A stretch of DNA of 64,000 bases from a virus, in IMG/VR virus record IMGVR_UViG_3300025875_000013, positions 4,583 through 68,582 of that record; one strand, given 5' to 3'. Position 1 is the first letter of the stretch, and each line of letters opens with the position of its first letter. Below the pieces are notes generated by a model. It had not been told where the DNA came from. It saw only the letters and a program-made list of their open reading frames with translations, and did not search any database. Below, in pieces: positions 3,560-62,551 of the stretch. The translations under genes were made by a program, and so were the position numbers.

Positions 3560-3745
3560 ATGAAAATAACACTTAAGGAGCCCCTTAAATTCTGTACAAA
3601 TCATTCCTGCCTGTTACGCTTAACCTGTCACCGCTATTTGTCCAGACCCAGCGAATTCAACCAAAGCTACACGCTGTTTGAGCCGGTTGATGGGAAATGT
3701 GAAAAATATTTGAAACACTTAGCCCTTGAATTATTACAACAATAA
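3560..3745 (+). CDS. hypothetical Cys-rich small protein
   Basis: 'CTNHSCLLRLTCHRY' plus a later Cys, zinc-ribbon-like. Start is 3 nt after the upstream stop. Confidence 0.25.
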   Translation: MKITLKEPLKFCTNHSCLLRLTCHRYLSRPSEFNQSYTLFEPVDGKCEKYLKHLALELLQQ

Positions 3746-3760
3746 CTACTTAGAAAAATT

Positions 3761-3979
3761 ATGAAGCAAGAATCATATAATTACAAAAATCTACCCAATC
3801 TGGATGAAATGACTAGAGATCAAGTAGTACCGTATTATCAAAATCTTATAGAAGTTGCTGTAGGCAATAACATGGATGAAGATATAAAAAATATAAATGC
3901 TAAAATTATAAAACGATGGTCTTTAGCAGCCTTAGAATATATCAAAAAGAAAGCCTGGAAAAACTTTGACCAACAATAA
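3761..3979 (+). CDS. hypothetical protein
   Basis: Small ORF. Its leader 'caacaataactacttagaaaaattatg' is repeated before the next ORF at 3966. Confidence 0.25.
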   Translation: MKQESYNYKNLPNLDEMTRDQVVPYYQNLIEVAVGNNMDEDIKNINAKIIKRWSLAALEYIKKKAWKNFDQQ

Positions 3980-4196
3980 CTACTTAGAAAAAATTATGAA
4001 AAGAATAAAAATAGAAGTCATTTATGAATATGTATTAGACATAGATGAATCAAATCATATTGTTAAAGAATATGAAGGAAGAGATGAATTAATTTCTGAT
4101 TTGGTAGCATATAGGTTCGATATCTTGCCAGTACTTGAAGAAGGAGTTAAGGTTGTTGATGTAGAACATGTTGACTGGAATTATATAGAAAAATAG
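3966..4196 (+). CDS. hypothetical protein
   Basis: Small ORF preceded by the same ~25-nt leader as the 3761 ORF, suggesting a local paralog pair. Confidence 0.25.
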   Translation: MTNNNYLEKIMKRIKIEVIYEYVLDIDESNHIVKEYEGRDELISDLVAYRFDILPVLEEGVKVVDVEHVDWNYIEK

Positions 4197-12716: not shown

Positions 12717-13457
12717 ATGAACGTATATGTTAACTTTAAAGTAAGAATAAAGCATGTTACTTATATGGAAACTATAAAAGAAGAGTTTAACGGAGTTGTT
12801 TACACCCGTTGTGTGAATGCCAAAGATGTAACTCACCGCCGCTATTATTATGGGAAGAGACCTAATTCAAAGAGAAGAACTTTATTACACCGGGATAAAT
12901 GGGAGTTCTACAACGGCAAAATTCCGGAAGGTTATCATATTCATCACAAAGATGAAAACCCTTTAAACAATGATTTATCTAATTTGGAATGTTTAAGCAA
13001 GGTTGACCATCATAAACGGCATGCAGGTAAGGCTTGGCATGCTATGAGTGATGAACAAAGAAAAGAACAATTAGCTAAAATGCATGAAGCTGGCAAAAAT
13101 TGGCATTATACGCCGGAAGGAATAAAGCATCATAAAGAATTAGCCGCAGCAAACTTAGCTAACAGGGTGTTAATCGAAAAGACTTGCACCTATTGTGGAA
13201 AGAAGTATGAAGTTTATAATGCTCTTTCTGGTAGACCTAAGTTTTGCTCTCCAAAATGCAGGGGTAAAGTAGAAAGACAAAAAAAATATAACTACGAGAA
13301 AAGAATATGTATTGTCTGCAATGGTGAATTTGATATTAGTAAGTATTCAGGTCAAATAGCTTGCAGCAGGGCTTGCGGCTATAAATACCGGACAATAAAC
13401 TCCCCTCATATTGCTAATAATGGATTTAAAGTAAGAAACCCACAATCAACAGTTTAA
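12717..13457 (+). CDS. HNH endonuclease with C-terminal Cys-rich repeats
   Basis: 'YHIHHKDENPLNNDLSNLECLSKVDHHKRH' is a HNH motif. The C-terminal half carries CxxC...C(x)2C repeats ('CTYCGKKY...CSPKCRG', 'CIVCNGEF...CSRACGYKY'). Free-standing in the terminase/portal junction, a classical homing-endonuclease position. Confidence 0.75.
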   Translation: MNVYVNFKVRIKHVTYMETIKEEFNGVVYTRCVNAKDVTHRRYYYGKRPNSKRRTLLHRDKWEFYNGKIPEGYHIHHKDENPLNNDLSNLECLSKVDHHKRHAGKAWHAMSDEQRKEQLAKMHEAGKNWHYTPEGIKHHKELAAANLANRVLIEKTCTYCGKKYEVYNALSGRPKFCSPKCRGKVERQKKYNYEKRICIVCNGEFDISKYSGQIACSRACGYKYRTINSPHIANNGFKVRNPQSTV

Positions 13458-29259: not shown

Positions 29260-30008
29260 TCTATAAACAGATATTCGATTTAATCGGGACTACTAAGCAG
29301 GTAAATATTATCAAAGAAGGCTTAGATAAAATAAAATTTCCTTGGGAGCGTATTACACCACCGGAAAGAGTGTTTAAAATAGGCTGGCAGGATTTGAATA
29401 ATGGCTTATTTGCAAAGGCCAGAGCGCACAAAGGACACGGTAATGAACCGGTTTCTATTACCGGCAAGCTAAATGGTCGTAAGTATATTATGGGCGTATT
29501 TTATCCGCATAACGGGGATATATTCGTAGATAACAAGCTTGTAAATTACCCTGAGATAGCGCAAACAACAGTATCGGCGGAGGCCGCGCATTTAGCAGAC
29601 GAATATCTACCATTAACAGATGCGCAAAGATTAGCCCTGCATAAGCTAATGCACCCCGGCGGTATTATTCCAAAGGATGAAGCATTCTGGTGGGAGAAAA
29701 TAGATTACGAAACAGAATATTTTAGCCTGGCCGGTGAGTTCTTTATGTGCCTGTTTACCCTTGCTTATTCGGATATGCTGTTTGACGCATCCGGTTTTAC
29801 CCATACCATAGAGCCGAATTTAATACCGAAAGTTCGGGAAATTATCGGCATAGAGCGCACAGACTTAGTGCCGGCAACACCTTTGAAAGAGTTCAAAGTT
29901 ATTGGTACAAGTAAAATATATCACAAACTTTCACATTATCCCGCAAAATCAGGAAAAATTGTAACCAATATAAGTAAATTAACGCCTTGTAAAACGTGTA
30001 AACCTTAG
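29256..30008 (+). CDS. hypothetical protein
   Basis: 250-aa ORF with start/stop overlap to the previous gene. Confidence 0.3.
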   Translation: MIYKQIFDLIGTTKQVNIIKEGLDKIKFPWERITPPERVFKIGWQDLNNGLFAKARAHKGHGNEPVSITGKLNGRKYIMGVFYPHNGDIFVDNKLVNYPEIAQTTVSAEAAHLADEYLPLTDAQRLALHKLMHPGGIIPKDEAFWWEKIDYETEYFSLAGEFFMCLFTLAYSDMLFDASGFTHTIEPNLIPKVREIIGIERTDLVPATPLKEFKVIGTSKIYHKLSHYPAKSGKIVTNISKLTPCKTCKP

Positions 30009-30559
30009 GTTGATTCTTGTAATAATCGTTTCACCTTGTTTATTTCTTCCTCAGTATGAACTGTGCCCCCTGTATTCATTTCTAAATACCATTGTAATAC
30101 CTCGGCTTTGGTTTGAAGATTATTTATGTTAAAGCGTATGTCATGCGAAATCCTTATTTTATCTTCGTATTCCGACCGTTTAAATCCAAATACAGGTATT
30201 TCATCTCTTAGGAACCGAATAATAGAAGTAAGTCTTTGCAGGCCGTCTACAATTACAAAATCATCATAAGGGGTAGTCGCGCGGCCCTGCCAACTTGGTT
30301 TATTAAAATAAAGAACCCTTCCGCTTTTGCCACCCTTTAACAGGTACTCCATAAATGCGATTTGTTGTTGCATAGTCCAAACGTGCCCTCTTTGGAAATC
30401 GGGATTTAGGTCTAATTTAAAATACGAATTTTCAACCCATTCTTTTATCTTGTCATCCAGCAAAAACAAAGGCATGTTAATTTCGTATCCGTTTTCTCTA
30501 GTAAACTGCTTAATATCCTGAAATTTCATTTTCTTAAACTTCTTTTTCTTCATGTACAT
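30005..30559 (-). CDS. DUF262 (ParB/sulfiredoxin-fold, GmrSD N-terminal-like) domain protein
   Basis: 'DFQRGHVW' and 'IVDGLQRLTS' match the DUF262 signature (DGQQR). Stand-alone 184 aa, with no DUF1524/HNH partner domain. Confidence 0.55.
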   Translation of the reverse strand: MYMKKKKFKKMKFQDIKQFTRENGYEINMPLFLLDDKIKEWVENSYFKLDLNPDFQRGHVWTMQQQIAFMEYLLKGGKSGRVLYFNKPSWQGRATTPYDDFVIVDGLQRLTSIIRFLRDEIPVFGFKRSEYEDKIRISHDIRFNINNLQTKAEVLQWYLEMNTGGTVHTEEEINKVKRLLQEST

Positions 30560-34689: not shown

Positions 34690-34735
34690 AATGCTTATCT
34701 GTTTGTGTTTCTAACTATACAAATGTAGCAATTAT

Positions 34736-34754
34736 ATTTGATATAGCAATAATA
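34736..34754. promoter_or_regulatory. operator-like near-palindrome ATTTGATATAGCAATAATA
   Basis: 18 of 19 positions identical to the copy at 38632-38650. The core ATTTGATATAGCAAAT is an imperfect palindrome. Intergenic, next to an XRE-like HTH gene. Confidence 0.35.
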
Positions 34755-34773
34755 TTTGCTAATTATTTTTCAT

Positions 34774-34988: not shown

Positions 34989-35636
34989 CTATTCAGGCGA
35001 TAAGCAAAAAGACTGGTTTTCAGATAGCCAGTAAGGAGGTCTCCAAGCCATCATTCTAACCGAAATACTCTCTTTAAGGCCGCTTTCCTTTGCCGGTATT
35101 GGCCTTATAACCTTATCAAAAGGATTGTAATTAACGGATTCGATATGAAAACCCGAAATTTCACCTTTGCCTTGGCTGGTTTTTTTGCCAATACCCCGTA
35201 AATGCCGTAATAAATATTCAACCCGCACAATATCATTACTGGCAAAATAAAACCATACTGTTTTGATACTGTGCAGAACTAAGGGCATATCATAACTTTT
35301 GTATTCACCTGCATTAATCCGCACCTTTCGTACTTTCTTGCCAAAGTCAGCCAGGAAATCATACTGGTTTGCCCATCGTTTCTTCCAACTGCCTGTAAAC
35401 TCCGCTGCCTTGTTGTAATCAAATTGCATCCAACTAGCCAGAAAGTAGCCGTCTGAGTGCCGGATAAGGGGTAGGTCATCAAAAGATTCCAGTTCTTCTT
35501 TCGGGATGCTTAACCGCTGCTGTACACTACCATCTTTTTCTTTCATGTAGCAGTAGGCTAATAAGGCATCAAAAACAGGCAAATCTATAAAGCTGATGGC
35601 TGATGCAAGGTTGAAGCTGATTTTATAGTATTGCAT
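34989..35636 (-). CDS. Cas5-like RAMP protein (candidate Csf3-like)
   Basis: Glycine-rich loop 'GIGKKTSQGKGEISG' (GhGxxxxxGxG) near the C-terminus and ~215 aa are typical of Cas5/Cas6-family RAMPs. It sits next to a Cas7-like gene and a CysH-like gene. Confidence 0.35.
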   Translation of the reverse strand: MQYYKISFNLASAISFIDLPVFDALLAYCYMKEKDGSVQQRLSIPKEELESFDDLPLIRHSDGYFLASWMQFDYNKAAEFTGSWKKRWANQYDFLADFGKKVRKVRINAGEYKSYDMPLVLHSIKTVWFYFASNDIVRVEYLLRHLRGIGKKTSQGKGEISGFHIESVNYNPFDKVIRPIPAKESGLKESISVRMMAWRPPYWLSENQSFCLSPE

Positions 35637-35896
35637 AGTCTTGATTTTTTAATTTTAATGGCGTTTTCTGTTTTGCCCAGCATTGCTGCTACTTCTTTTG
35701 GATGAAATTGCTGTATATATTCCTGTTCTTCACGTGTATAATTTCGCTTACGGCTTAAGCCTAGTTTTACCGCCATCCGACTAATGCTTTTGTCTGATTT
35801 ATCCCGCATATATCCAACCTTTTGCATTTGCTTGTAAGGCATCTTCCCGTAATTTATGCGTAGGAACACCTTGTCTGATAACTTCCACTTAGACAT
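35585..35896 (-). CDS. small HTH-repeat DNA-binding protein
   Basis: Two HTH-like repeats ('...SISRMAVKLGLS...' and '...PKEVAAMLGKTENAIKIKKSRL'), similar to the N-terminal repeats of the 5661 HNH ORF. Overlaps both neighbours. Confidence 0.35.
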   Translation of the reverse strand: MSKWKLSDKVFLRINYGKMPYKQMQKVGYMRDKSDKSISRMAVKLGLSRKRNYTREEQEYIQQFHPKEVAAMLGKTENAIKIKKSRLCNTIKSASTLHQPSAL

Positions 35897-36578
35897 AAGT
35901 TTTAATAATAGGGTATTTAGAGGCGAAACTATTAAACGATTCCGGAAAGCACTTTTTTAAAGTATGGGCTTGCCCGTATTGTAGGGCCCTGTGATTGGCA
36001 AAAGGCCCTATACGTTGCTTTTCTACTGGAATGAAATTGTTATGCATAACGTCATAGGCCTGGTTGTAAGGAACCTCATGGGCATGAATATATGTCCAAA
36101 TATCATCAACGCTCCACCATGCTAAAGGAGAACAATTTCTTTTACCGTTCTTCATTTGATGGATTAAACCAAACCGGTTTAGATGTTTCCTGCGATAACT
36201 ATTTTCATCTGCCCTTAATCCTAAAAAGCAAAGATCAAATTCAAAGTTACTTAAATCGTTTCTGCCTTCATTCGTAATGAACCAATCGGTATGGTGCGCT
36301 TCGGTATGTAGCATTTTGAGATTCGGAACTGTGTCTAAATATTTTTGGGTTTGCGGTAATATAAATTCATCATCGTGATATATAGCCCTGCATTCCGGCA
36401 TATAACTACGTACCAAATGCAGTAAAACAGTAGAATCCTTACCGCCAGAAAGCGAAACATAAGGTTTATTGCAGGAGGCTAAAGCGGTTTTTACGCACGC
36501 TTTAGCCTGTTCAAGATTGGCTTTGAACCCCTTCTGCTCCGATAGTAATAGATAATATTCCTTATCCATTAGCACCAA
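35889..36578 (-). CDS. PAPS-reductase family (CysH-like) PP-loop protein
   Basis: PP-loop 'VSLSGGKDST' and 'LGLRADENSYRR' (GxRxxES..R). Confidence 0.65.
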   Translation of the reverse strand: MVLMDKEYYLLLSEQKGFKANLEQAKACVKTALASCNKPYVSLSGGKDSTVLLHLVRSYMPECRAIYHDDEFILPQTQKYLDTVPNLKMLHTEAHHTDWFITNEGRNDLSNFEFDLCFLGLRADENSYRRKHLNRFGLIHQMKNGKRNCSPLAWWSVDDIWTYIHAHEVPYNQAYDVMHNNFIPVEKQRIGPFANHRALQYGQAHTLKKCFPESFNSFASKYPIIKTYV

Positions 36579-37851
36579 AAAACTGTTTTATAGCTTCTTT
36601 ATTCTCTTCAATATGCTGCAAGTACAGACTATCATCCATATCCGGCAAGGCTGTTAAATTAACGTGCCCGTGCCCGATGCTGCTCTTAGCACACACGTAG
36701 GCATTTTGCTTGAATAGATTAACTAACCGGGCAAAAGCAGCTTCCATTAGAGGGTTGTCAGACCAGCAGGCCAGCGTATGCCGGAAAGGAGTACCGGTTG
36801 CGTAAACCTCATATTCATACTTCATCTGGTGGGTTTCAGGCTTGGCTTCTGGTAATACTTCAATGGTGCTTTCCAGTTTTTCGGAATCCAAACGGGTGCC
36901 AAACTGAATATGTACAAAGTCGTGAAAACTAGCCCGACCTAATCCGTTCTCAAAGCAAAGGGGTTTCGCATCGCCTACGGTAAGTTCGCCTTGTATAGTC
37001 TGGTTGCCTACGGCCGAACCAAAAAGGCCGATCATAGGACACATCTGAATATAATTTTGCCTTGCCTGTAAATCTTCGAAACCGTTGCTGTCGTTAATGG
37101 TGCCGCCCGTAAACAAACGGTGGTACAGCCCTGCTTCTATTTTTTCTATGCGGGCCAGTATGGCAAAGTCATACATAACCAAGCGTCGCAGTAATCCCCG
37201 GATGCTGTTACCAGAAATAACCGGCACCATTTCGTACATTTTGTGCGTGTCCGTGTCCTGAAAAGGTTGCAGCTGAACCTCTCCTAATTGGTCTTGCAGG
37301 ACATCTAATGGGTTCAAGTCACCCGTACCTTCGTTGAAGAGAGTAAGGCTGGTTACTTTTTTCTTTTTACCATTTTCCTTATCCCAATTCACGGTATCAT
37401 CTTTCAGTTTCCGGAAAACAGCCATAATGTATTGGTGTTCATCCCGGATAACCTGCAATAACTCTTCATCATCAAACAACTCCAGAATATCTATCACATC
37501 AAACCGCCCGTCTTCTTTTTGGGTAATCTGCCGGATTTCCAGTTTCTGGCAGATGGTATTAAGAAAATCTTCTTTGCTCCGTACAGAAGTAGAGGATATT
37601 AATTTGGCCGCTACTTCGTCGTATATCGTTACCCGGCCTTTATCCTCCATTTTGTTCCAGAGCTTTATAAGCAGGTAGGCTACGGCCATTCGTTTTAATT
37701 TGCGTTGGTCCGGCGTGAAGCGGCTGCGAATAACTTTTGCTTTTTCCTGTATTACCCTTTCCCTTCTTAAGGTGCGCAGGGTGCCCATATTCAAATCGGA
37801 GCCGGTATGTATGGGTTCCAGGGCGGTAAACTGATAGTTAATTTTTTGCAT
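36562..37851 (-). CDS. Cas7-like RAMP protein (candidate Csf2-like backbone subunit)
   Basis: N-terminal 'ALEPIHTGSD' (Cas7 PLHIGSG-type motif). Central 'VPVISGNSIRGLLRRL' (RAMP IPGSSxKGxxR motif). C-terminal small G-rich 'SSIGHGHV'. Confidence 0.5.
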   Translation of the reverse strand: MQKINYQFTALEPIHTGSDLNMGTLRTLRRERVIQEKAKVIRSRFTPDQRKLKRMAVAYLLIKLWNKMEDKGRVTIYDEVAAKLISSTSVRSKEDFLNTICQKLEIRQITQKEDGRFDVIDILELFDDEELLQVIRDEHQYIMAVFRKLKDDTVNWDKENGKKKKVTSLTLFNEGTGDLNPLDVLQDQLGEVQLQPFQDTDTHKMYEMVPVISGNSIRGLLRRLVMYDFAILARIEKIEAGLYHRLFTGGTINDSNGFEDLQARQNYIQMCPMIGLFGSAVGNQTIQGELTVGDAKPLCFENGLGRASFHDFVHIQFGTRLDSEKLESTIEVLPEAKPETHQMKYEYEVYATGTPFRHTLACWSDNPLMEAAFARLVNLFKQNAYVCAKSSIGHGHVNLTALPDMDDSLYLQHIEENKEAIKQFFGANG

Positions 37852-38551
37852 AAGATTTCTGTAAAAAATGGACGATTAAATTAAATATATTGGTGTTCCG
37901 GAATTGATTCAGAGCTTCATTTTCCTGTTCAAACCTTTCTAATCCATAAGCTGCTATCTTTTGGTACATCGGTAATTTTTCACCCCTGATTTCTTCTTTG
38001 GTGAAATAAGTAGGGGGCATGGCAGCATCTTCTTTGCCGGTTACAACCGTGTACCAGGAAGAAATAATAGGCAGGAATTGATTTACCTGTTCCCGGTCAA
38101 AATAACAGTTGTATTTATCGGTAGTAATTAAGAAATAACCCTTATCGGTGTTGGTAACGGTTTTATAACTGGTATGCTTTTTATTGGAAAAAGTAAGGGC
38201 AATATGAAAAGGGGTTTCGGGTATATTCAGGAGCAAATCTAAAACCTCATTGGATTTAAGGATGCGAAAAACACTTTCGGAAGCGTAGTAATTATAGTTG
38301 CGGAGTGAATTGAAACCTTTACCACTTTCACTAGGATAAACTTCTTCAATACACAATGCTGCCTCCACCGAACTATAAGGAGAAGGGTATTTTACATACT
38401 CATGATCGGTGAATGTGTCTTTTATCAGGTCTTTATTCCTTACACCTTCGCTTATTTTTTTGCCGGTGAAAGAACAAATGCTGCCTTCCGGCATTTCAAA
38501 TACCGGTATTTTTAGATTTCCCCGGATAAGATGCTTGGCTATTATTTCCAT
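37838..38551 (-). CDS. hypothetical protein, first gene of the RAMP/CysH cluster (possible large-subunit analog, speculative)
   Basis: 237-aa ORF overlapping the Cas7-like gene start. No motif recognised. Confidence 0.25.
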   Translation of the reverse strand: MEIIAKHLIRGNLKIPVFEMPEGSICSFTGKKISEGVRNKDLIKDTFTDHEYVKYPSPYSSVEAALCIEEVYPSESGKGFNSLRNYNYYASESVFRILKSNEVLDLLLNIPETPFHIALTFSNKKHTSYKTVTNTDKGYFLITTDKYNCYFDREQVNQFLPIISSWYTVVTGKEDAAMPPTYFTKEEIRGEKLPMYQKIAAYGLERFEQENEALNQFRNTNIFNLIVHFLQKSYAKN

Positions 38552-38631
38552 GATTTAACTCCGCTTAAATTTAGTACCAGATTGTCGTTATAGGAAACCA
38601 CTTTATTAGTCATATTATTTATATCATTTTA

Positions 38632-38650
38632 ATTTGATATAGCAAATATA
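38632..38650. promoter_or_regulatory. operator-like near-palindrome ATTTGATATAGCAAATATA
   Basis: Second copy of the 19-nt site, in the divergent intergenic region between the RAMP cluster (minus) and the plus-strand genes. Confidence 0.35.
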
Positions 38651-38682
38651 ATTGTTATTTTTGTTAAATCAAACTAAACATT

Positions 38683-38919
38683 ATGGAAAACACTTTAAAA
38701 TACGAAAAGGAAGTAAATCAATTATTGCGCGATTTATTTTATGAGGATTGGATGGGCGAAGGCGAATGGCAGGAATTTATTCAGCTTTTATTAAGGGAGA
38801 ATAAATTATCAATCGGACTATTATCTAAACAAATAGAGACAGGGGTAAATAATGGGTATAGTGTAGACTACCAGATAAAGCTACTTAAAGTCATAACAAA
38901 ATCAACGGTGAAAAACTAA
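38683..38919 (+). CDS. hypothetical protein (paralog pair, first member)
   Basis: Starts 'MENTLKYEKE'. Preceded by a 21-nt leader identical to that of the next gene. Confidence 0.3.
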   Translation: MENTLKYEKEVNQLLRDLFYEDWMGEGEWQEFIQLLLRENKLSIGLLSKQIETGVNNGYSVDYQIKLLKVITKSTVKN

Positions 38920-38924
38920 ACATT

Positions 38925-39164
38925 ATGGAAAACCTACTCAACTCAAACAATCTTATCGAAATCGACGAGGCCTTAACCAAATTTAAGGAGCATCATAAAA
39001 GAGAAGCCGCAAAAGATATACATTTGCAAACCATGCTTACCTTTCAAGTCAATGTAGAAATCAGAAATGGAGATGCCCCAACAGGCTATTATATGGGCTA
39101 TGATAACGCTGTGCGGGACGTATTGGAATTTATAGGCAATAACTTTACACCTAAGAAGGCCTAG
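38925..39164 (+). CDS. hypothetical protein (paralog pair, second member)
   Basis: Starts 'MENLLNSNNL'. Same 21-nt leader AAACTAAACATTATGGAAAAC. Confidence 0.3.
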   Translation: MENLLNSNNLIEIDEALTKFKEHHKREAAKDIHLQTMLTFQVNVEIRNGDAPTGYYMGYDNAVRDVLEFIGNNFTPKKA

Positions 39165-39464
39165 AATTCAAGGAATAATACCTAAATTAAGGTATGCTCA
39201 AACAACCTAAATTTATTACCCTTCGCGTTGCACCCTATAAAGGATGGTTTTGGTATACTAATTATGAAGGAGAATATGCAACATCCGGATTCCTATATAT
39301 GAATTGATATGACTAGATATAATCCAAACTTTCTTATAATCCTAGTAGCGGAGCAATATAGGGGCTATTTTTTCTTTGAGACATTAGAAAATGAATACGT
39401 ACCAACACCTTATATTTATTTTAACTAATGCCTACAACGAACAATTTATTGAACATCTAAAATT

Positions 39465-39704
39465 ATGAAAAAATTAATCTGCTATCTTTTCAATCACAAG
39501 TACAGGCTTCTTAGAAAGATAAGCCCAAGTGTCAGGGAAATAAAATGCACAAGATGCTTACAGGAGTTTGGAATGAATGATAATCTTAAGGCATTAATTC
39601 CTTTAGACGGGGAACTTAGAGATATTCATAATGAAATGTTGTTTATTCATAAAATAAAGGAGGATATGTGGCGGCAACACCAGAGCAATTTATTGAACAG
39701 CTAA
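39465..39704 (+). CDS. hypothetical Cys-containing protein
   Basis: 79-aa ORF with 'CYLFNHK...CTRC'. Confidence 0.25.
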   Translation: MKKLICYLFNHKYRLLRKISPSVREIKCTRCLQEFGMNDNLKALIPLDGELRDIHNEMLFIHKIKEDMWRQHQSNLLNS

Positions 39705-47600: not shown

Positions 47601-47814
47601 AGCGCAGGAAATCGAAAAGAAAGCGGAAATTCAGCGCGAAATTAAAGACAAGTCTTACAACAATGAGGCGGTACTCAAAGAATTGCAACAGTTACGGGAG
47701 GAAGTAAAAGGGGTACGTTCCAATACCAACGAAAAAGAAGAAATCATTGAAACCCCGACCGAAACCATTCATAAAAAAGGTAGTCGTACCTGGCGGGTTA
47801 AGAAGCAAGCTTAG
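44653..47814 (+). CDS. tail tape measure protein
   Basis: 1053-aa ORF, largest gene in the tail module. Extensive coiled coil and Ala/Lys/Glu-rich repeats ('AAKKAEDEAKKRAAALKAAEKELQRELEALEKQAAQ'). Hydrophobic segment 'GLPLGIAAVTAMFVAFASA'. Confidence 0.8.
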   Translation: MAEVVSKAIFETGDAQSSIQGLINSIEKYQNAVDQTNSAAKQPFKDSAKNIQDFNKELSNGVKVYQKIENTAQGYKDEIKRLNTLLQDLTRSQSKFIAAGKYDVIQKDIAKVKSRLQELKSVQEDNTKAGNGFAKVIQNIGATMAAYFAIDTIINLGKQIFNVTAEFQKFEAVLTTSLGSNSAAERAMNMIADFAATTPFSVAELTDSYVKLASRGIRATAEQMENLGDIASSTGKSFDQLTEAVLDSLSGENERLKEFGIQAQKTGQTTQYTFKGVTTEVKNTKEAILAYMVSLGDLNGVQGSSEAISKTLTGQISNLGDAFDRLLLTVGNQQEGIFGSTISLFTRMTERATFLLSSVDQLGEKLASEDVSKFAEKIEADFGKIAEKTKAAGGDVAAVLRDQAFLLQRDLEEKRGMAQAQLDIAKENYDFLAKADDFLLGRTTNKEAAAKIAAEVKKAEGELAAIDDALRVVLERSSAKPGYDAEAAKKAEDEAKKRAAALKAAEKELQRELEALEKQAAQARLDMLDKNSKEYQVELLAQRSKEIGIIEDSLKEAERKAGKDGKLDTKQEDQLSILRQAAQKQYNEAIYNIELAASKKLLDLQADSHQKELDQINQRYDAEIFAANVAKDRVLAAALEQARERELIAARFNQQESDADQGETLAIEVATQYTYSESDDPVNIERDKQEKILAIQIEYAKKRMENALLLSGQEGEIRRLELKNYIDELEKQQKEIGKLNQADKFDILELLGVKDEDKDAVRQAFNEVIGFVSDFTRQQLDLANEVLASRREEVKEKEGQLDREIELNKLGFASNVETRRAELEEAKKARSEAIADQQKAQKAQNTIDTLQQLTALGTSAANIIKGFSAIPIVGLPLGIAAVTAMFVAFASAKSRATAATKAEKGLSSVGGKRHAQGGNRFVSIDNHNDVLEIEEGERIVNRKSNSKYWEWLEAINNDDMRKFERLAFNYTLEEMPIRPRRELAQEIEKKAEIQREIKDKSYNNEAVLKELQQLREEVKGVRSNTNEKEEIIETPTETIHKKGSRTWRVKKQA

Positions 47815-47841
47815 ACCGTCACACCTGGCACATCAGCTTAA
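47806..47841 (+). promoter_or_regulatory. 36-nt conserved element copy B (AAGCTTAGACCGTCACACCTGGCACATCAGCTTAAA)
   Basis: Overlaps the tape measure stop codon and ends 10 nt before the next gene's ATG. Confidence 0.4.
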
Positions 47842-58669: not shown

Positions 58670-58674
58670 GTAAA

Positions 58675-58712
58675 AAATTAAGACCCGCAAAATGCGGGTC
58701 TTAATTTTTTAG
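58675..58712. terminator. Rho-independent terminator (bidirectional)
   Basis: TTAAGACCCGC-AAAAT-GCGGGTCTTAA followed by TTTTTT. Confidence 0.6.
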
Positions 58713-58728
58713 CACTTTTAATTATGAT

Positions 58729-59022
58729 CTAGTTCGTTTTATAGGCAGTCCGTATTATATTATCATTATCTGAAAAATCATTTATACAGATATACAGTTC
58801 GTTTTCAAATAGAACAGTTACAAACTCATGTTCAGAATTTAAGCCTGAAAATAATTTGACACTTAAAATATAAGGTTCAGAAACTATAGTAACTAAGCTT
58901 CTAGGTGTCTGGCAATCCCCTGCTAACCAACTCTGTTCTTTAGTTTTTAGGTTAACCTGGTAGCTATTATCAACCGGATAAGCCTTAGTTCCGATTAATT
59001 TTGTATTTAGTTGTGTTTTCAT
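58729..59022 (-). CDS. hypothetical protein
   Basis: 97-aa ORF. Confidence 0.25.
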   Translation of the reverse strand: MKTQLNTKLIGTKAYPVDNSYQVNLKTKEQSWLAGDCQTPRSLVTIVSEPYILSVKLFSGLNSEHEFVTVLFENELYICINDFSDNDNIIRTAYKTN

Positions 59023-59040
59023 AATTCCGGCATAGTTAAA

Positions 59041-59277
59041 TTAATCGTGCATATAATCGCCAATCCAATTATAACAATCCCCAGAAATATTTCTGTCAAA
59101 GTTTCCAATAATTAAGCAAGTTTGGAATAATTGCTTTTGTGCGTTTAACCGGTTCCACAGCGCGACACGGGTAGGATTGCCAGCTGAAGAGAAATGTATA
59201 TGATTATTTGCAAAAGTGCCTATCTCCATTTCAGGATCACATTTGCTTAAGATAGCTTCTAATTCTTTAACTTTCAT
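59041..59277 (-). CDS. hypothetical protein
   Basis: 78-aa ORF. Confidence 0.25.
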   Translation of the reverse strand: MKVKELEAILSKCDPEMEIGTFANNHIHFSSAGNPTRVALWNRLNAQKQLFQTCLIIGNFDRNISGDCYNWIGDYMHD

Positions 59278-60053
59278 TATTTAACACTTTTAAACATTAC
59301 TGGAGATTCGCCATAAAGCGGTGTTTTGCCATCCCACTTTTCTATAAATTGCTGCTGAATAAGCATCGGCGTTAAAGATTGCTGTTTTAATTCATTGGCT
59401 TCTTTTTCAGCCCTGGCAACAATCAATCTACGTTGTGCATCAATGCTATCCTTAACTAAGCTGTTACGGGCTTGTATGGCTTCCTGAATAGCTTTATTCT
59501 TTTGGTCGATAGCCTGGGTAATTGTTTGCGGATAGCGCATACCAAAGGTCATTTGCGCAACTTCAAACCCTTCCTTTTGCAAATCTTTCACCAGCGATGC
59601 GGTTACCTGATTATCAAATTGTTGCCGCTTGCTTAAAATATCGTCTGTGGTGTAGTTATTGAACACGTTTTTAAAAGCATCTTTCACCTCATTTCGGATA
59701 ATACCGGCCTCTATATCTTCAATTTGCACCCGGTACTTGCGAAATATATTAGGGCTTTGACCCCGCACGATTTGGTAACTTAATGTAGGGTCAACTTCAA
59801 AAATAGAACCATCTTTTGCGTTTACGGTAAACGGTTCGTAATCAACGGTTCTAACGTGTACAGGAAATTCAAATACATCTTCTGTAAGAGGATTGTAAAA
59901 TACCCTGCCAGACGCCAGAGATACACCTTGTCCCTTACCTTCACCTGAAAGGGCCACTTTCACTCCTTCATATCCGCCATCTATGACAGTTGAGCAGGAA
60001 TAAAATAATACTGATAAAATTAAAAGGTTACAAATTTTCATTAGATTTTTCAT
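59277..60053 (-). CDS. SPFH/band-7 (prohibitin-like) domain lipoprotein
   Basis: Lipoprotein signal 'LLILSVLFYSCST'. C-terminal 'QAIDQKNKAIQEAIQARNSLVKDSIDAQRRLIVARAEKEANELKQQ' matches the SPFH coiled-coil segment. Confidence 0.5.
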   Translation of the reverse strand: MKNLMKICNLLILSVLFYSCSTVIDGGYEGVKVALSGEGKGQGVSLASGRVFYNPLTEDVFEFPVHVRTVDYEPFTVNAKDGSIFEVDPTLSYQIVRGQSPNIFRKYRVQIEDIEAGIIRNEVKDAFKNVFNNYTTDDILSKRQQFDNQVTASLVKDLQKEGFEVAQMTFGMRYPQTITQAIDQKNKAIQEAIQARNSLVKDSIDAQRRLIVARAEKEANELKQQSLTPMLIQQQFIEKWDGKTPLYGESPVMFKSVK

Positions 60054-60103
60054 TTTTCTGTTTGTTAAAAAGTAGATATAAAATTATTATTTAAGCGTTA
60101 ATT

Positions 60104-60364
60104 TTATTGCATGTGCCCGAAAAACGCTTCTGGAATTTCCTGTAGATCGCTATCAGGATTTTCAACAAAGCAAACCGTATCATCATGGGTAAACTCTAAT
60201 ACAGTTAATATTTGGTTTTGGAAAAGACATTTATCCCCTTCGTTAATTTTGCCCTCAACTAAAATATAATCTTCCAAGTTTAGGCTACTTTTTTTCTTAA
60301 ATAAACTTTCTAAAACTGTAAAGTTAAAAAGGTTCGCAGCTATCTGCACAATCTTCTTGTTCAT
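60104..60364 (-). CDS. C-terminal part of an ORF interrupted by the 900-bp cassette
   Basis: The N-terminus 'MNKKIVQIAANLFNFTVLESLFKKK' is encoded by the 39-bp direct repeat. The same 'NFTVLESLFKK' peptide ends the ORF at 61187-61390, in the same frame. Confidence 0.3.
   Translation of the reverse strand: MNKKIVQIAANLFNFTVLESLFKKKSSLNLEDYILVEGKINEGDKCLFQNQILTVLEFTHDDTVCFVENPDSDLQEIPEAFFGHMQ
60292..60330. repeat. 39-bp perfect direct repeat, copy 1 (TTTTCTTAAATAAACTTTCTAAAACTGTAAAGTTAAAAA)
   Basis: Identical to 61192-61230, exactly 900 bp away. Confidence 0.8.
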
Positions 60365-61190
60365 CTAACTCAAAGTCATATTCAGAACCATCAGTAATCA
60401 TCGATTTATCGACAGCCAAATTAAAGGGTTCTTTACTTTCTTGTAGTAAGTCTCTAATGCTTTGCCAACCACGAAAAAACATTAATGGCAACTTACCTTT
60501 ATATTGTTTTGGAGACACATGTCCGTATTTTTCTTCCATGTTTTGTACCCACTTTGTAGAATTGGGGTCACTGACGATTTGGGTAAGTAGTTTTCTCTTA
60601 CTTTTTTTATGACACAGTTTGCAATTACCCTCCCAATCTTGCAATTGAAGGTCAAAATTTTGAGCCTTCCAGGAAACAGCCACATCAGCTTTGGTAATAC
60701 CCCATTCCCAGAGCGGATACCATTGTTTTTTCATCGCAGCAGTAATTAAATTAACCCTCTTAGGTTCGTCTTTTCTATACCCTATAACCATTAAGCAATC
60801 TTTAAAGCCTACACTTTTGGCAAATGACTTAATTGGGTTAGTTTTTAATTCCCTGGTACAATGTGGTGTAGATTTAGAAGGTATTCCGTATTTTTTTATA
60901 ACCTCTTCAAATATTTCGCCATTCCGCGCGGCTGTGTTGTAATTGACAATAGAATGCGTGCTTGATTTTCTTACTCCATGCCATACTTTCGCTTCCACCC
61001 AAACAATCGACATACCAAAATTTTGTTCTAACTGGTGTAAAAAAAGAAGTGTTTCTTCCTTTTCCCTGCTGGTATTGGCAAACACGAAGATCATTTCATA
61101 TTTATCTTTGTACCTAGTCCATAATAAATAAGCCATAAGCCCAGACGTTCGACCCCCGGAAACAGATACCAATAATTTTTGTCTATTCAT
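60324..61190 (-). CDS. PAPS-reductase family PP-loop protein (second copy in window), cassette-borne
   Basis: PP-loop 'LLVSVSGGRTSG', 'IGYRKDEPKR', C-terminal 'CKLCH'. The gene fills the interval between the two 39-bp direct repeats, and its stop codon lies inside copy 1. Confidence 0.6.
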   Translation of the reverse strand: MNRQKLLVSVSGGRTSGLMAYLLWTRYKDKYEMIFVFANTSREKEETLLFLHQLEQNFGMSIVWVEAKVWHGVRKSSTHSIVNYNTAARNGEIFEEVIKKYGIPSKSTPHCTRELKTNPIKSFAKSVGFKDCLMVIGYRKDEPKRVNLITAAMKKQWYPLWEWGITKADVAVSWKAQNFDLQLQDWEGNCKLCHKKSKRKLLTQIVSDPNSTKWVQNMEEKYGHVSPKQYKGKLPLMFFRGWQSIRDLLQESKEPFNLAVDKSMITDGSEYDFELDEQEDCADSCEPF

Positions 61191-61390
61191 CTTTTCTTAA
61201 ATAAACTTTCTAAAACTGTAAAGTTAAAAATTAATAGCGCGGCAATTATAAGCAGCCCCAGCCAAAACATATAATCCGATTCAGCATTAAAGCAATTAAA
61301 GGCCCACTGGATCGCTGTAAAATCCAGGCAGAGAATAAAGGGAAAGGCTATAAACCAACGGTAAAAGCGGATGCGGGATTTAGGAGTCAT
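61187..61390 (-). CDS. N-terminal part of the interrupted ORF (small membrane protein)
   Basis: Hydrophobic 'FIAFPFILCL...WLGLLIIAALLIF' then 'NFTVLESLFKKR*' encoded by repeat copy 2. Confidence 0.3.
   Translation of the reverse strand: MTPKSRIRFYRWFIAFPFILCLDFTAIQWAFNCFNAESDYMFWLGLLIIAALLIFNFTVLESLFKKR
61192..61230. repeat. 39-bp perfect direct repeat, copy 2
   Basis: Identical to 60292-60330. Confidence 0.8.
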
Positions 61391-61745
61391 ATTTTTTTAA
61401 TAAAAGAGAATTATTCAACATGAACGGAATAAAATCGGAAGTATCAAACTCATCTTTTAATTGTGGTATATCATAAATAACATTACTACCCCCCTTGATG
61501 GTCGCTATCATTTCTTCAAAATTATTATTGCCTATAATCGAAGTAAGCTCCATTAATGAATCTTTAACCTGTTTATACCAGTCTGGATTCTTTTCTTTTA
61601 AATAATCTACAGCAACAGGTATATGATGCATCATTAGATCATCATTACAGATATGGTTTAATATCATATATACATCTTCCATAAATGTTGATAGCCGCCC
61701 ATCCACTATTGAGAACAGTTGCAGTAATGTAAATTGCTTAGTCAT
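61380..61745 (-). CDS. hypothetical protein
   Basis: 121-aa ORF. Confidence 0.25.
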   Translation of the reverse strand: MTKQFTLLQLFSIVDGRLSTFMEDVYMILNHICNDDLMMHHIPVAVDYLKEKNPDWYKQVKDSLMELTSIIGNNNFEEMIATIKGGSNVIYDIPQLKDEFDTSDFIPFMLNNSLLLKKYDS

Positions 61746-61762
61746 AATATTTTTTTTAAATT

Positions 61763-62185
61763 TTAAAGTACAAATCCCATTTTTTCTAACTCATTAATCA
61801 ATTCCGATCTTTCCGCTTGTTTATGTCTTAACAAGATACCCAGTATCTCTAAGGTTTCATACACATTTAGAACTTCATCTAAAGCGGGTTTATCTTGTTT
61901 TTGCTGATTTGCATCATTCGTATCAATTCCCCAACGAAGAGCCATTTGCCGGGCTATCTGTTCCGCTATATTTCCTTTGTAAATCAAAGAACCATCCGGA
62001 TCAAGTATATCTTCTTTCTTGGGTTTCGGCGGTGTTAAGTCCTTTACGTGCAACTTAAGCTTTACCTCACAAATCGCATTGGCAAGCAGCATGGCTTGTT
62101 TATCGATGCGGATTATATCTTTATCCAGTTCCTGTATTTTAGCGAACAGGATAGAGGCTTTTTCTAATGTTTTAGCGCTGTTCAT
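61763..62185 (-). CDS. hypothetical protein
   Basis: 140-aa ORF. Confidence 0.25.
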   Translation of the reverse strand: MNSAKTLEKASILFAKIQELDKDIIRIDKQAMLLANAICEVKLKLHVKDLTPPKPKKEDILDPDGSLIYKGNIAEQIARQMALRWGIDTNDANQQKQDKPALDEVLNVYETLEILGILLRHKQAERSELINELEKMGFVL

Positions 62186-62379
62186 ATCAACTGGTTTTTT
62201 AACTTAAACTGATCCCTAAGCAAAGCTGTAACGTCTTTAAGTTGCCTGTCAACAACCTGTTTTTCTAATTGCTCCCATTCTACATCACTTAAATAGACGT
62301 TTTTGGTTCTAATATTTAATCTTGGTTCTAATACTTTTTTTCTACCCATTGTATTAATTATTAAATTATAAAATTTCAA
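62182..62379 (-). CDS. hypothetical protein
   Basis: 65-aa ORF. Confidence 0.2.
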   Translation of the reverse strand: MKFYNLIINTMGRKKVLEPRLNIRTKNVYLSDVEWEQLEKQVVDRQLKDVTALLRDQFKLKNQLI

Positions 62380-62551
62380 TTGATTCTTCAGAATAAGGAA
62401 TAGTTTCTAAATGCCCTTTAGGTGAGGTTGTTTCTTTTGTAATAAACAAACCTCCATTCTGTGTCTCCTCAATTACATAGGTGTTTTCGCCATTGATGAG
62501 CTTAACCATTTTAACATTATCAAAAACATCTTTATCTCTATTAACTCTCAT
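62366..62551 (-). CDS. hypothetical protein
   Basis: 61-aa ORF. Confidence 0.2.
   Translation of the reverse strand: MRVNRDKDVFDNVKMVKLINGENTYVIEETQNGGLFITKETTSPKGHLETIPYSEESIEIL

What the first reader, a model, noticed from the sequence alone, without database searches (positions are those of the whole stretch)
60292..61230. 900-bp cassette carrying a second PAPS-reductase gene, bounded by perfect 39-bp direct repeats and splitting an older ORF in frame
The repeat TTTTCTTAAATAAACTTTCTAAAACTGTAAAGTTAAAAA occurs at 60292-60330 and 61192-61230, exactly 900 bp apart. The 288-aa PP-loop protein (SGGRTSG, IGYRKDEPKR) fills the interval. The upstream ORF 61187-61390 ends with NFTVLESLFKKR* encoded by repeat copy 2. 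The downstream ORF 60104-60364 begins MNKKIVQIAANLFNFTVLESLFKKK encoded by copy 1, in the same frame. Deleting one repeat plus the cassette (900 = 3 x 300) would restore a single ~130-aa membrane-protein gene. This looks like a mobile or recently inserted gene cassette, for example homing-like or site-specific recombination with a long duplicated target. Together with the CysH-like gene in the RAMP cluster the phage carries two PAPS-reductase paralogs.
Basis: seen in the sequence. Interest (0 to 1): 0.65.

Follow-up and report, generated by a model that had tools for sequence, protein, structure and literature searches.

The report
Single-gene insertion with duplicated 39-bp target
In an uncultured tailed phage, one enzyme gene sits exactly between two identical 39-base copies of the middle of a small membrane-protein gene, which is most likely a rare visible footprint of accessory-gene gain by sloppy recombination rather than a new kind of mobile element.

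Summary
A perfect 39-nt direct repeat lies at 60292-60330 and 61192-61230, exactly 900 bp apart. A 288-aa PP-loop gene fills the interval, and the two flanking small ORFs read the repeat in the same frame. The arrangement is identical in assemblies from six accessions, so it is not an artefact.

Insertion into a once-continuous 128-aa ORF is the most economical reading, but it cannot be confirmed. Neither the fused protein nor any homologue spanning both halves exists among about 15 billion public proteins. The one distant homologue of the downstream half has no membrane segment.

Nothing supports homing or site-specific recombination:
- The cassette holds a single ORF, from 1 nt upstream of its ATG to its stop.
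- The repeat has no structure and no third copy.
- 80 homologous loci show no conserved flanks.
- The 3' junction lies in a 7-nt microhomology (TTTTTAA, the gene family's native end).

Smaller single-ORF units bracketed by perfect 14-30-nt junction duplications occur elsewhere in this genome, and 14- and 54-nt ones occur in a related phage. My best explanation is illegitimate, microhomology-guided insertion with a de novo 32-39-bp target duplication.

The cargo is a stand-alone SspD/DndC-like enzyme. It is not a close paralogue of the CysH-like gene of the phage's type IV Cas-like module.

The parts
61192..61230 (-). Repeat copy upstream in the direction of transcription. It encodes the end of TM helix 2 and the C-terminus (FNFTVLESLFKK) of TM67, and it serves as the immediate 5' leader of the inserted gene.
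60292..60330 (-). Downstream repeat copy. It supplies the stop codon of the inserted gene (in one frame) and residues 13-24 of the 86-aa ORF (in the TM67 frame).
60331..61191 (-). 861-nt unique interior of the cassette: 1 nt (G) plus the PP-loop ORF without its last 7 nt. Nucleotide homology to relatives' genes covers only 60324 to about 61195.
60324..61190 (-). The cargo gene, a 288-aa PP-loop ATP-pyrophosphatase (SGGRTSG motif). Matches: PF01507, phrog_424, and SspD as the best defence-library hit. It has five conserved Cys (C111, C190, C193, C281, C285) and native family N- and C-termini (...CEPF*).
60324..60330 (-). TTTTTAA on the coding strand. It is both the native 3' end of the gene family (CC-T TTT TAA; identical in L051) and the first 7 nt of the target repeat, i.e. 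the microhomology at the 3' junction. The true target duplication is therefore 32-39 bp.
61187..61190 (-). ATGA overlap: the stop codon of TM67 is created by the insert and overlaps the start of the cargo gene (translational coupling inferred).
61187..61390 (-). TM67, a 67-aa ORF with two hydrophobic segments (KD19 1.73 and 2.47). It is the proposed 5' fragment of the interrupted gene and an ORFan.
60104..60364 (-). p86, an 86-aa ORF and the proposed 3' fragment. Its first 12 codons are an out-of-frame reading of the cargo gene's 3' end. Residues 32-82 (60119-60271) form a small soluble domain with one distant homologue (P0123).
58729..62551 (-). Leftward operon of small accessory genes that hosts the insertion: p61, p65, p140, DUF7736, TM67, cargo, p86, SPFH, p78, p97. 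A 19-bp perfect-stem terminator lies at 58671-58711.
3737..3992 (+). Analogous smaller unit. Perfect 22-nt repeat (about 30 nt across a 1-nt indel) made of stop, leader and ATG, on both sides of the single ORF72 (3761-3979). Unit length 234 nt.
38671..38933 (+). Analogous smaller unit. Perfect 21-nt repeat (TAA stop, leader, ATG GAA AAC) on both sides of the single ORF78 (38683-38919). Unit length 242 nt.
39442..39699 (+). Analogous smaller unit. Perfect 14-nt repeat (21 nt with one mismatch) bracketing the single ORF79b (39465-39704). Unit length 244 nt.

Best explanation
A single complete gene for a stand-alone SspD/DndC-like PP-loop enzyme was inserted by illegitimate, microhomology-guided recombination into a small gene (two TM helices plus a soluble domain) in an accessory-gene operon of a roughly 69-kb tailed phage. 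The donor was probably an unsampled phage.

The event copied 32-39 bp of the target onto both sides of the insert. The most likely route is copy-choice (template switching) during replication:
1. The growing strand left the target after ...AAGAAAA.
2. It copied the donor ORF up to its native end ...CCTTTTTAA.
3. It re-annealed on the target at TTTTTAA, 39 nt behind where it had left.

The result is A-R-cargo-R-B:
- The host gene is split into TM67, whose new stop overlaps the cargo's ATG, and p86.
- The cargo is expressed from the operon by translational coupling.
- Recombination between the two repeat copies would delete exactly 900 nt and restore the 128-aa ORF.

Shown: the geometry, the sharp edges, the single-ORF content, the microhomology and the reality of the arrangement. 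Inferred: the direction of the event (insertion), the template-switch route, the translational coupling, and an anti-defence or DNA-modification role for the cargo.
For: - Geometry: perfect 39-mers, only two copies, chance expectation 0. No similarity beyond either edge. Same reading frame on both sides, and an open 128-aa fusion after a 900-nt deletion.
- Content: the insert is exactly one ORF. Homologues align over 99-100% of it, and the family's native termini are M..LLVSVSGGR and ...CEPF*.
- Microhomology: relatives end GAACCTTTTTAA or GAACCATTTTAA, so the first 7 nt of the downstream repeat belong to both the cargo and the target. DNA homology to relatives is confined to 60324-61195.
- Mobility of the cargo: the same gene sits in a different context in every relative examined, next to TnpB, alone among tail genes, or in early clusters.
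- Homology-driven capture from a foreign donor is unlikely. The repeat is coding sequence of an ORFan found nowhere else among about 15 billion proteins or in three DNA collections.
- The signature recurs. Three more single-ORF units in this genome are bracketed by perfect sharp-edged 14-30-nt junction duplications (11 such repeats against 1.2 expected). Two nested cases of 54 and 14 nt occur in a related 75-kb phage, one around its homologue of this gene.
- The phage contig encodes an ERF-family annealing protein just beyond the window end.
- The arrangement is real in assemblies from six accessions.
Against: - No empty site, no uninterrupted homologue and no donor has been found, so the direction of the event (insertion versus some other origin of the second copy) rests on parsimony alone.
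- The only homologue of the downstream half carries the soluble domain at its N-terminus with no membrane segment. The ancestral gene therefore need not have been a TM-domain fusion.
- The cassette's GC and tetranucleotide composition are typical of the genome, so there is no compositional sign of recent foreign origin.
- Zero differences in 39 coding bases only bounds the divergence between the copies at about 7% (my calculation), so 'recent' is weakly supported.
- In two of the smaller units both the start and the stop of the enclosed ORF lie inside the repeat. That fits recombination at shared junction sequences at least as well as random template switching.
Confidence: 0.6

Rival explanations
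1. Campbell-type integration of a 900-bp circular cassette (repeat plus gene) by homologous recombination across the 39-bp sequence. It would be catalysed by the phage's own ERF-type annealing protein, and it would be analogous to PeSL minicircle shuffling in T4-type phages. The cassette would then be in dynamic equilibrium between integrated and excised states.
For: - A-R-X-R-B is exactly the product of single-crossover integration of a circle carrying R.
- 39 bp is within the range where annealing proteins work (general knowledge).
- ERF is encoded on the same contig.
- PeSL-flanked ORFans and their minicircles are documented (PMC2839356).
- In the smaller units the repeats contain stop, leader and start, i.e. 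junction sequences that related phages could share.
Against: - The circle must already have carried 39 nt of coding sequence of an ORFan that occurs nowhere else in public data. This model therefore explains spread within the lineage but not the origin.
- The repeat is not a dispersed family.
- The repeat contains no promoter or terminator module.
Confidence: 0.2
2. TM67 and p86 were always separate genes flanking the PP-loop gene. The 39-mer was copied from one to the other, by local gene conversion or duplication of a short segment, and no ORF was ever interrupted.
For: - The only p86 homologue (P0123) has the soluble domain at its N-terminus and no two-TM part.
- Same-frame continuity has about a 1-in-3 chance anyway.
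- TM67 looks like a complete small two-TM protein.
Against: - There is no similarity outside the 39-mer to suggest paralogy.
- The copy would have had to land so that it supplies the cargo's native stop codon and continues open, in frame, into the downstream domain.
- p86's first 12 codons are merely the out-of-frame 3' end of the cargo gene. Its ATG arises from a synonymous GAT codon that is GAC in L049.
- No known process moves a 39-bp segment 900 bp downstream on its own.
Confidence: 0.1
3. The cassette is a site-specific or homing mobile element: an integron-like cassette, a transposon with a target-site duplication, or an intron/intein-like insertion.
For: - The boundaries are precise, the flanking direct repeats are long, and the length is a multiple of 3.
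- Two free-standing HNH_3 endonuclease genes exist elsewhere in the genome.
Against: - The cassette encodes only the PP-loop protein, aligned end to end with its family.
- No integrase or transposase was found among the annotated ORFs.
- The HNH genes lie at least 46 kb away.
- The repeat has no inverted-repeat or hairpin character (z about 0).
- There is no Rfam intron.
- The host frame is broken by a stop and a frame change, so this is not an intein.
- 80 homologous loci show no conserved or repeated ends beyond the control level.
Confidence: 0.04
4. Assembly artefact or chimera: the repeat arose from mis-joining of strain variants.
For: Short-read metagenome assemblies can create or collapse repeats.
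Against: - The structure is identical in contigs from MEGAHIT-style ENA assemblies, in JGI assemblies of two samples (one a slightly different strain), and in a k=31 Logan graph that branches exactly at the repeat.
- A 39-nt repeat is shorter than a read.
Confidence: 0.02

Closest known systems
PeSL-mediated modular shuffling and PeSL minicircles in T4-type phages (Arbiol et al. 2010, PMC2839356)
   Same: A single accessory ORF is bracketed by direct repeats in a plastic region of a phage genome. Recombination between the repeats would excise the ORF as a small circle and leave one repeat copy, and the reverse reaction would insert it.
   Different: PeSLs are a dispersed family of intergenic elements, conserved over about 100 bp, with a sigma-70 promoter and a stem-loop terminator. 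Here the repeat is unique to the site, has only two copies, lies inside coding sequence, has no promoter or terminator module, and has razor-sharp edges. It therefore looks like a duplication created by the event rather than a shared recombination site.
Moron/accessory-gene acquisition by illegitimate recombination in mosaic phage genomes (general model; established knowledge)
   Same: Gain of a single foreign gene at an arbitrary point without dedicated mobility machinery. Short A/T-rich microhomology at a junction. The cargo is of the auxiliary or anti-defence type.
   Different: Mosaic joints normally leave no footprint. Here a 32-39-bp target duplication is preserved and a resident ORF is visibly split in frame.
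Target-site duplications of transposable elements, and repeat duplication at CRISPR spacer integration (established knowledge)
   Same: An insert is flanked by a perfect direct duplication of target sequence.
   Different: Transposon duplications are typically 2-15 bp and come with terminal inverted repeats and a transposase. Cas1-Cas2 duplicates an existing CRISPR repeat around a spacer of about 30 bp. None of those components is present here.
SspD / DndC PP-loop enzymes of DNA phosphorothioation systems, and stand-alone phage 'PAPS reductases' (phrog_424) found in anti-defence hotspots (PMC13551039)
   Same: PP-loop ATP-pyrophosphatase fold. SspD profile E=3.9e-15 and phrog_424 E=5.8e-41. 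Conserved cysteines compatible with an Fe-S cluster. Location in a variable accessory operon.
   Different: No Ssp or Dnd partner genes nearby. It does not reach the DndC or CysH equivalog models. The substrate and function are untested.
Integron gene cassettes, including those reported in phage genomes (PMC9892861)
   Same: A promoter-less single-ORF unit inserted into an expressed array.
   Different: Integron cassettes carry one structured attC site and need an IntI integrase. Here there are two identical unstructured direct repeats and no integrase.

Membership tests
PAPS_reduct / PP-loop ATP pyrophosphatase superfamily (PF01507) | Score above the Pfam gathering threshold | tested here: met
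   31.3 bits against a cut-off of 22.5, residues 6-149. phrog_424 E=5.8e-41.
PAPS_reduct / PP-loop ATP pyrophosphatase superfamily (PF01507) | N-terminal PP-loop motif SGGxxS, and a Rossmann-like alpha/beta fold | tested here: met
   SGGRTSG at residues 11-17. The AF2 model (pLDDT 91.3) matches LarE, TtuA, APS/PAPS reductase and GMP synthase folds with probability 1.0, at low TM-scores of 0.35-0.44.
Bona fide CysH (assimilatory PAPS/APS reductase) | Reaches the CysH/PAPS-reductase equivalog models, and has the C-terminal ECGLH catalytic motif | tested here: not met
   No hit to TIGR00434, TIGR02057 or NF002537 for this protein. The sequence ends ...DCADSCEPF and contains no ECGLH.
DndC / SspD of DNA phosphorothioation systems | Profile similarity to SspD or DndC | tested here: inconclusive
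   PADLOC SspD E=3.9e-15 over residues 7-203, and DndC E=1.5e-4. The NCBIfam DndC equivalog TIGR03183 gave no hit.
DndC / SspD of DNA phosphorothioation systems | Encoded with partner genes (DndA/B/D/E or SspA/B/C) | tested here: not met
   The neighbours are DUF7736, ORFans and an SPFH protein. None hits Dnd or Ssp models.
PeSL-type mobile regulatory cassette (T4-type phages) | The repeat belongs to a dispersed family of intergenic elements | tested here: not met
   Only two copies at up to 3 mismatches in 64 kb, and both lie in coding sequence.
PeSL-type mobile regulatory cassette (T4-type phages) | The repeat contains a promoter plus a stem-loop terminator | tested here: not met
   No promoter or terminator call inside the repeat. 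Folding energy is no better than shuffles.
PeSL-type mobile regulatory cassette (T4-type phages) | Excised minicircles and empty sites exist in the population | not testable with these tools
   Needs raw reads or PCR. All public contigs are filled, and the exact fusion protein is absent from the collection.
Transposon / IS element | Transposase gene and terminal inverted repeats inside the target duplication | tested here: not met
   The interior is one PP-loop ORF aligned end to end with its family. No inverted repeats were reported at the cassette ends.
Integron gene cassette | Structured attC site and an integron integrase | tested here: not met
   The repeat is unstructured. No integrase was found among the annotated ORFs of the window. 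Not every small ORF was scanned.
Homing endonuclease gene / group I or II intron / intein | Endonuclease ORF or ribozyme within the insert, or in-frame protein splicing | tested here: not met
   No nuclease domain in the cargo. Rfam finds only two tRNAs in the window. The host frame ends at a TGA, and the cargo is in another frame.

The most novel reading that the evidence does not exclude
This phage lineage has a general way of gaining, and reversibly losing, single ORFs that leaves 14-54-nt duplications of the target. Four such units occur in this genome and two in a relative.

The 39-bp pair would make the PP-loop gene an excisable 900-bp ORF minicircle. Its loss restores a functional membrane protein, and the circle can move between co-infecting phages through the phage's own ERF annealing protein. 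That would amount to a recombinase-free, sequence-independent gene-cassette system acting at coding as well as intergenic sites.
Probability: 0.12. Interest if true: 0.7.

Novelty: new variant of a known kind. Interest (0 to 1): 0.42.

Why it matters
- Phage genomes are mosaics, but the joints almost never reveal how a gene got in. Here the footprint is intact: a one-ORF insert, a 32-39-bp duplication of the target, microhomology at one junction, and a resident gene split in frame.
- The same kind of footprint recurs at smaller scale in this genome and in a relative.
- This gives a concrete, testable case for the mechanism of accessory-gene gain (template switching versus minicircle integration) and for the rate of the reverse deletion.
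- The cargo belongs to a gene class, stand-alone SspD/DndC-like 'PAPS reductases', that has been suggested to act in anti-defence.
- Practically, it shows that the two small 'hypothetical proteins' flanking the gene are probably fragments of a single gene.

Tried and rejected
**Searches for an empty site or a relative (all negative)**
- The fused 128-aa protein in the k-mer protein search, the exhaustive HMMER search of 1.84 G representatives and the exact look-up.
- The exact 39-mer in viral contigs.
- A degenerate back-translation of FNFTVLESLFKK in metagenome, genome and viral collections. These collections turned out not to hold this phage at all.
- The deposited-phage BLAST found only a 200-nt SPFH match to crAss-like phages.

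**Flanking genes as anchors**
- SPFH homologues in 37 viral loci share no other neighbour.
- DUF7736 has no viral-contig relatives.

**Checks on the repeat and the cassette**
- Extended, degenerate homology beyond the repeat: none. My eye-impression of IAALLIFNF versus IAANLFNF was not significant.
- Compositional foreignness of the cassette: none.

**P0123 as evidence that p86's annotated start is native**
- Rejected, because its called N-terminus overlaps a terminator hairpin.

**Repeat-flanking as a property of the gene family**
- Rejected by the 80-locus scan with shifted controls.

**Empty sites for the analogous units**
- Sought for the L049 structure and for the smaller units in the window. 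Every contig is identical or nearly so, and filled.

**Known element types and cargo structure**
- Known RNA elements, hairpin or attC-like structure, and integrase or transposase genes: nothing found.
- The fold search of the cargo gave only generic PP-loop matches.
Full report
**1. The observation**

The 39-mer TTTTCTTAAATAAACTTTCTAAAACTGTAAAGTTAAAAA is present at 60292-60330 and 61192-61230, perfectly identical and exactly 900 bp apart. At up to three mismatches there is no third copy in the 64-kb window, and none appeared in 100 dinucleotide-preserving shuffles. It is the longest perfect short-range repeat in the window.

All genes at the locus are on the minus strand. In the direction of transcription they are:
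- DUF7736 protein (61380-61745).
- A 67-aa ORF, here TM67 (61187-61390).
- The 288-aa PP-loop ORF (60324-61190).
- An 86-aa ORF, here p86 (60104-60364).
- An SPFH protein (59277-60053).

TM67 ends ...FNFTVLESLFKKR*. The first 12 of those residues are encoded by the upstream repeat copy, and the R and the stop come from the first bases of the insert. Its TGA overlaps the ATG of the PP-loop gene (ATGA, 61187-61190). The PP-loop ORF starts 1 nt after that copy, and its TAA is nt 5-7 of the downstream copy. p86 reads the downstream copy in the same frame as TM67. Removing 900 nt gives an open 128-aa ORF.

**2. It is real, but the population is clonal**

Contigs from two ENA assemblies (one of 69,377 bp) and from JGI samples 3300004186 and 3300025825 are 100% identical to the window across the locus and contain both copies. 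Sample 3300025825 carries a slightly different strain, with 1-2 SNPs per 4 kb elsewhere in the genome. In the Logan assembly of SRR6241618, two contigs stop exactly 30 nt into the repeat from either side, which is the expected behaviour of a k=31 graph at a 39-nt repeat. An assembly artefact is therefore excluded. There is, however, no sequence diversity to exploit.

**3.

- The hypothetical fused protein finds only p86 itself in the 5.8-billion-cluster search.
- An exhaustive HMMER scan of 1.84 billion representatives finds only TM67, p86 and one distant 189-aa protein, P0123.
- The exact fused sequence is not in the collection, and both half-ORFs are singleton clusters.
- A degenerate back-translation of the repeat peptide finds nothing in the metagenome, genome or viral collections.
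- P0123 shares only the soluble domain (query residues 74-124, 42% identity). In its contig the called N-terminal extension overlaps a terminator hairpin, so the protein most likely starts MKKKYIANYIIIEDE. That puts the domain at the N-terminus with no membrane part.

So there is no evidence for an intact ancestral TM-plus-domain ORF, and one weak hint against it.

**4. Anatomy of the junctions**

- Homology ends abruptly at both edges of the 39-mer. Local alignments of 60- and 170-nt flanks score no better than shuffles.
- The cargo aligns end to end with its many homologues, 2,802 at E<=0.001, the best at 68% identity. Most of them end exactly ...CEPF*.
- One relative ends TGC GAA CCT TTT TAA, base for base like the window, and another ends ...CCA TTT TAA. 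The first 7 nt of the downstream repeat (TTTTTAA, 60324-60330) are therefore native both to the cargo gene and to the target. The 3' junction lies in a 7-nt microhomology, and the true target duplication is 32-39 bp.
- DNA similarity to relatives' loci covers only 60324 to about 61195. The insert is a single ORF, from position -1 (or a few A's upstream) to its stop.
- p86's first 12 codons are an out-of-frame reading of the cargo's conserved C-terminus. Its ATG arises from a synonymous GAT Asp codon that is GAC in L049, so that start codon is probably fortuitous.
- TM67 has two strong hydrophobic segments, and the repeat encodes the last third of the second. p86's N-terminus is below the usual TM threshold.

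**5. What the repeat is not**

- It has no hairpin or attC-like structure (z about 0).
- It contains no promoter or terminator call.
- It is not a dispersed element.
- Rfam finds only two tRNAs in the window.
- No integrase or transposase was found among the larger ORFs. The only mobile-type nucleases are two free-standing HNH_3 genes at 5661-6398 and 12717-13457.
- The cassette's GC (37.3% against 39.0%) and tetranucleotide usage are typical of the genome.

**6. Is repeat-flanking a property of the gene family? No.**

In four relatives the gene sits in four unrelated contexts: beside a TnpB, alone and in opposite orientation among tail genes, in an early small-ORF cluster, and beside AAA_15/RNase H genes. 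That marks it as a frequently relocated accessory gene.

In 80 loci from viral contigs, the longest exact repeat bracketing the gene is 13 nt or less, the same as for position-shifted controls. The one exception is the phage represented by L049/L058.

**7. A recurring footprint**

The exception is instructive. In L049 a 54-nt leader element that includes ATGAAAA is duplicated on both sides of an [ORF57 + PP-loop gene] block. The downstream copy is itself split by a 49-aa zinc-ribbon ORF flanked by a 14-nt duplication, and that ORF's stop codon lies in the downstream copy. The element occurs nowhere else in that locus, so it is not a PeSL-like family.

In the window itself, perfect repeats of 14 nt or more within 2.5 kb number 11, against 1.2 in shuffles. 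Three of them bracket single ORFs with sharp edges:

| Repeat starts (copy 1 / copy 2) | Perfect repeat | Extended form | Contents of the repeat | Enclosed ORF | Unit length |
|---|---|---|---|---|---|
| 3737 / 3971 | 22 nt | about 30 nt across a 1-nt indel | stop + leader + ATG | ORF72 | 234 nt |
| 38671 / 38913 | 21 nt | none | TAA + leader + ATG GAA AAC | ORF78 | 242 nt |
| 39442 / 39686 | 14 nt | 21 nt with one mismatch | C-terminal codons of ORF79b in the downstream copy; leader upstream of its ATG in the upstream copy | ORF79b | 244 nt |

The ORFs on either side of each repeat are not paralogues, so these are not tandem gene duplications. All public contigs are again filled. The 39-mer pair is therefore the largest example, and the only intragenic one, of a pattern in which single ORFs are bracketed by a duplication of whatever sequence they were inserted into.

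**8. Mechanism**

The structure A-R-X-R-B can arise in two ways.

(i) *De novo duplication during an illegitimate event.* This means copy-choice or template switching with re-entry upstream of the exit point, or repair of a staggered break.

(ii) *Single-crossover integration of a circle carrying R.* This is the PeSL minicircle model (PMC2839356), possibly using the ERF annealing protein encoded just beyond the window end.

I favour (i) for the origin, for two reasons. R is coding sequence of an ORFan that exists nowhere else, so a foreign donor could not have shared it. And the 3' junction shows the microhomology expected of such events. Model (ii) remains possible for spread within the lineage. 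It also fits the smaller units, whose repeats contain start and stop codons.

Either way, R x R recombination would delete exactly 900 nt and restore the 128-aa ORF. Whether that occurs cannot be tested without reads.

**9. The cargo**

- Family matches: PF01507 above threshold, phrog_424 'phosphoadenosine phosphosulfate reductase' at E=5.8e-41, and SspD as the best defence-library match at E=3.9e-15, with weak DndC.
- No match to the CysH or DndC equivalog models.
- Five invariant or near-invariant cysteines.
- A confident AF2 model (pLDDT 91.3) whose nearest solved folds are [4Fe-4S] PP-loop sulfur transferases (LarE, TtuA, NcsA), APS/PAPS reductases and GMP synthase, all at low TM-scores.
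- No Dnd or Ssp partner genes nearby.

A recent paper notes that phage PAPS reductases resemble DndC/SspD, cluster in variable regions that are anti-defence hotspots, and that one was reported to promote evasion of Dnd (PMC13551039). An anti-defence or DNA-modification role is therefore a reasonable inference, but it is untested.

The second PF01507 protein of the window (35889-36578) shows no pairwise similarity to this one. It belongs to a Csf1-Cas11/Csf2-CysH-like-Csf3 module. The two are superfamily members, not recent paralogues.

**10. Verdict**

The insertion interpretation is plausible but unproven, and the homing or site-specific interpretation is not supported.

I class this as a new variant of a known kind: accessory-gene gain in a mosaic phage genome. 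What is unusual is the preserved long target duplication and its recurrence at several sites.

Interest is moderate (0.42). It is a clean natural footprint that makes the mechanism of gene gain testable, but it is a single clonal lineage, with no empty site, no donor and no new machinery.

Noticed in passing
window 34989-38551 (minus strand): A complete type IV CRISPR-Cas-like effector module carried by the phage:
- Csf1/Cas8-like, 237 aa (37838-38551, PADLOC E=3e-21).
- Cas11 + Csf2/Cas7, 429 aa (36562-37851, E=4e-40).
- CysH-like PAPS_reduct, 229 aa (35889-36578).
- A 103-aa ORF.
- Csf3/Cas5, 215 aa (34989-35636, E=5.5e-37).

The gene content resembles type IV-B, which typically lacks an array. 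I did not look for a CRISPR array.
   Followed up: partly
window 34726-34769 and 38622-38665: A 44-nt AT-rich repeat (75% identical) containing TATATTTG-like motifs lies on both sides of the type IV Cas-like module. It could be a Bacteroidota-type promoter element or a module boundary.
   Followed up: no
window 22994-24490 (minus) and 24729-24961: A TROVE/Ro60-like protein (PF05731, E=3.6e-21, with a vWA_Ro60 domain) lies next to tRNA-Glu (24828-24903). Two identical 19-nt tRNA D-arm-like fragments (TGCTCTACCAACTGAGCTA at 24729 and 24943) flank the tRNA but are not called as tRNAs. They may be Y-RNA-like (YrlA-type) genes with tRNA-like modules.
   Followed up: no
window 3737-3992, 38671-38933, 39442-39699: Three single small ORFs (72-79 aa; units of 234, 242 and 244 nt), each bracketed by perfect, sharp-edged direct repeats of 14-22 nt that carry stop codon, leader and/or start codon. 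The ORFs on either side of each repeat are unrelated.
   Followed up: partly
L049 4784-6104 (75-kb phage contig ERZ27264404 k141_5150430; same as IMGVR_UViG_3300025921_000002): Nested duplications. A 54-nt leader that includes ATGAAAA is duplicated around [ORF57 + PP-loop homologue]. A 49-aa CxxC...CxxC zinc-ribbon ORF is inserted into the downstream copy with a 14-nt duplication, and its stop codon lies in the duplicated sequence.
   Followed up: partly
L045 3879-5945 (Logan SRR13838932 contig): The closest homologue of the cargo (68% identity) lies 12 nt downstream of a 369-aa TnpB (OrfB_IS605 / Cas12f-like) gene in a phage-like contig.
   Followed up: no
window 7091-7122, 25263-25294, 47808-47839: A dispersed 32-nt repeat, AGCTCAGACCGTCATACCTAGCACATGGGCTT (84-91% identical, three copies, ends self-complementary AGCT...AGCTT). 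Its function is unknown.
   Followed up: no
window 5661-6398, 12717-13457, 30005-30559: Two free-standing HNH_3 endonuclease genes, one adjacent to tRNA-Gln and the other downstream of the large terminase gene, and a 184-aa GmrSD_N/DUF262-like protein.
   Followed up: no
window 39194-39428: Two adjacent tiny ORFs (37 and 39 aa) are clear paralogues (alignment score 68 against 21 +/- 4.5 in shuffles). This is a small tandem gene duplication.
   Followed up: no
L053 97-180: The database protein P0123 appears to have a mis-called start. Its first 23 codons overlap an intrinsic-terminator hairpin (ATGGCTC-TTTAT-GAGCCAT followed by a T-run), so the real start is probably the ATG at 176.
   Followed up: yes
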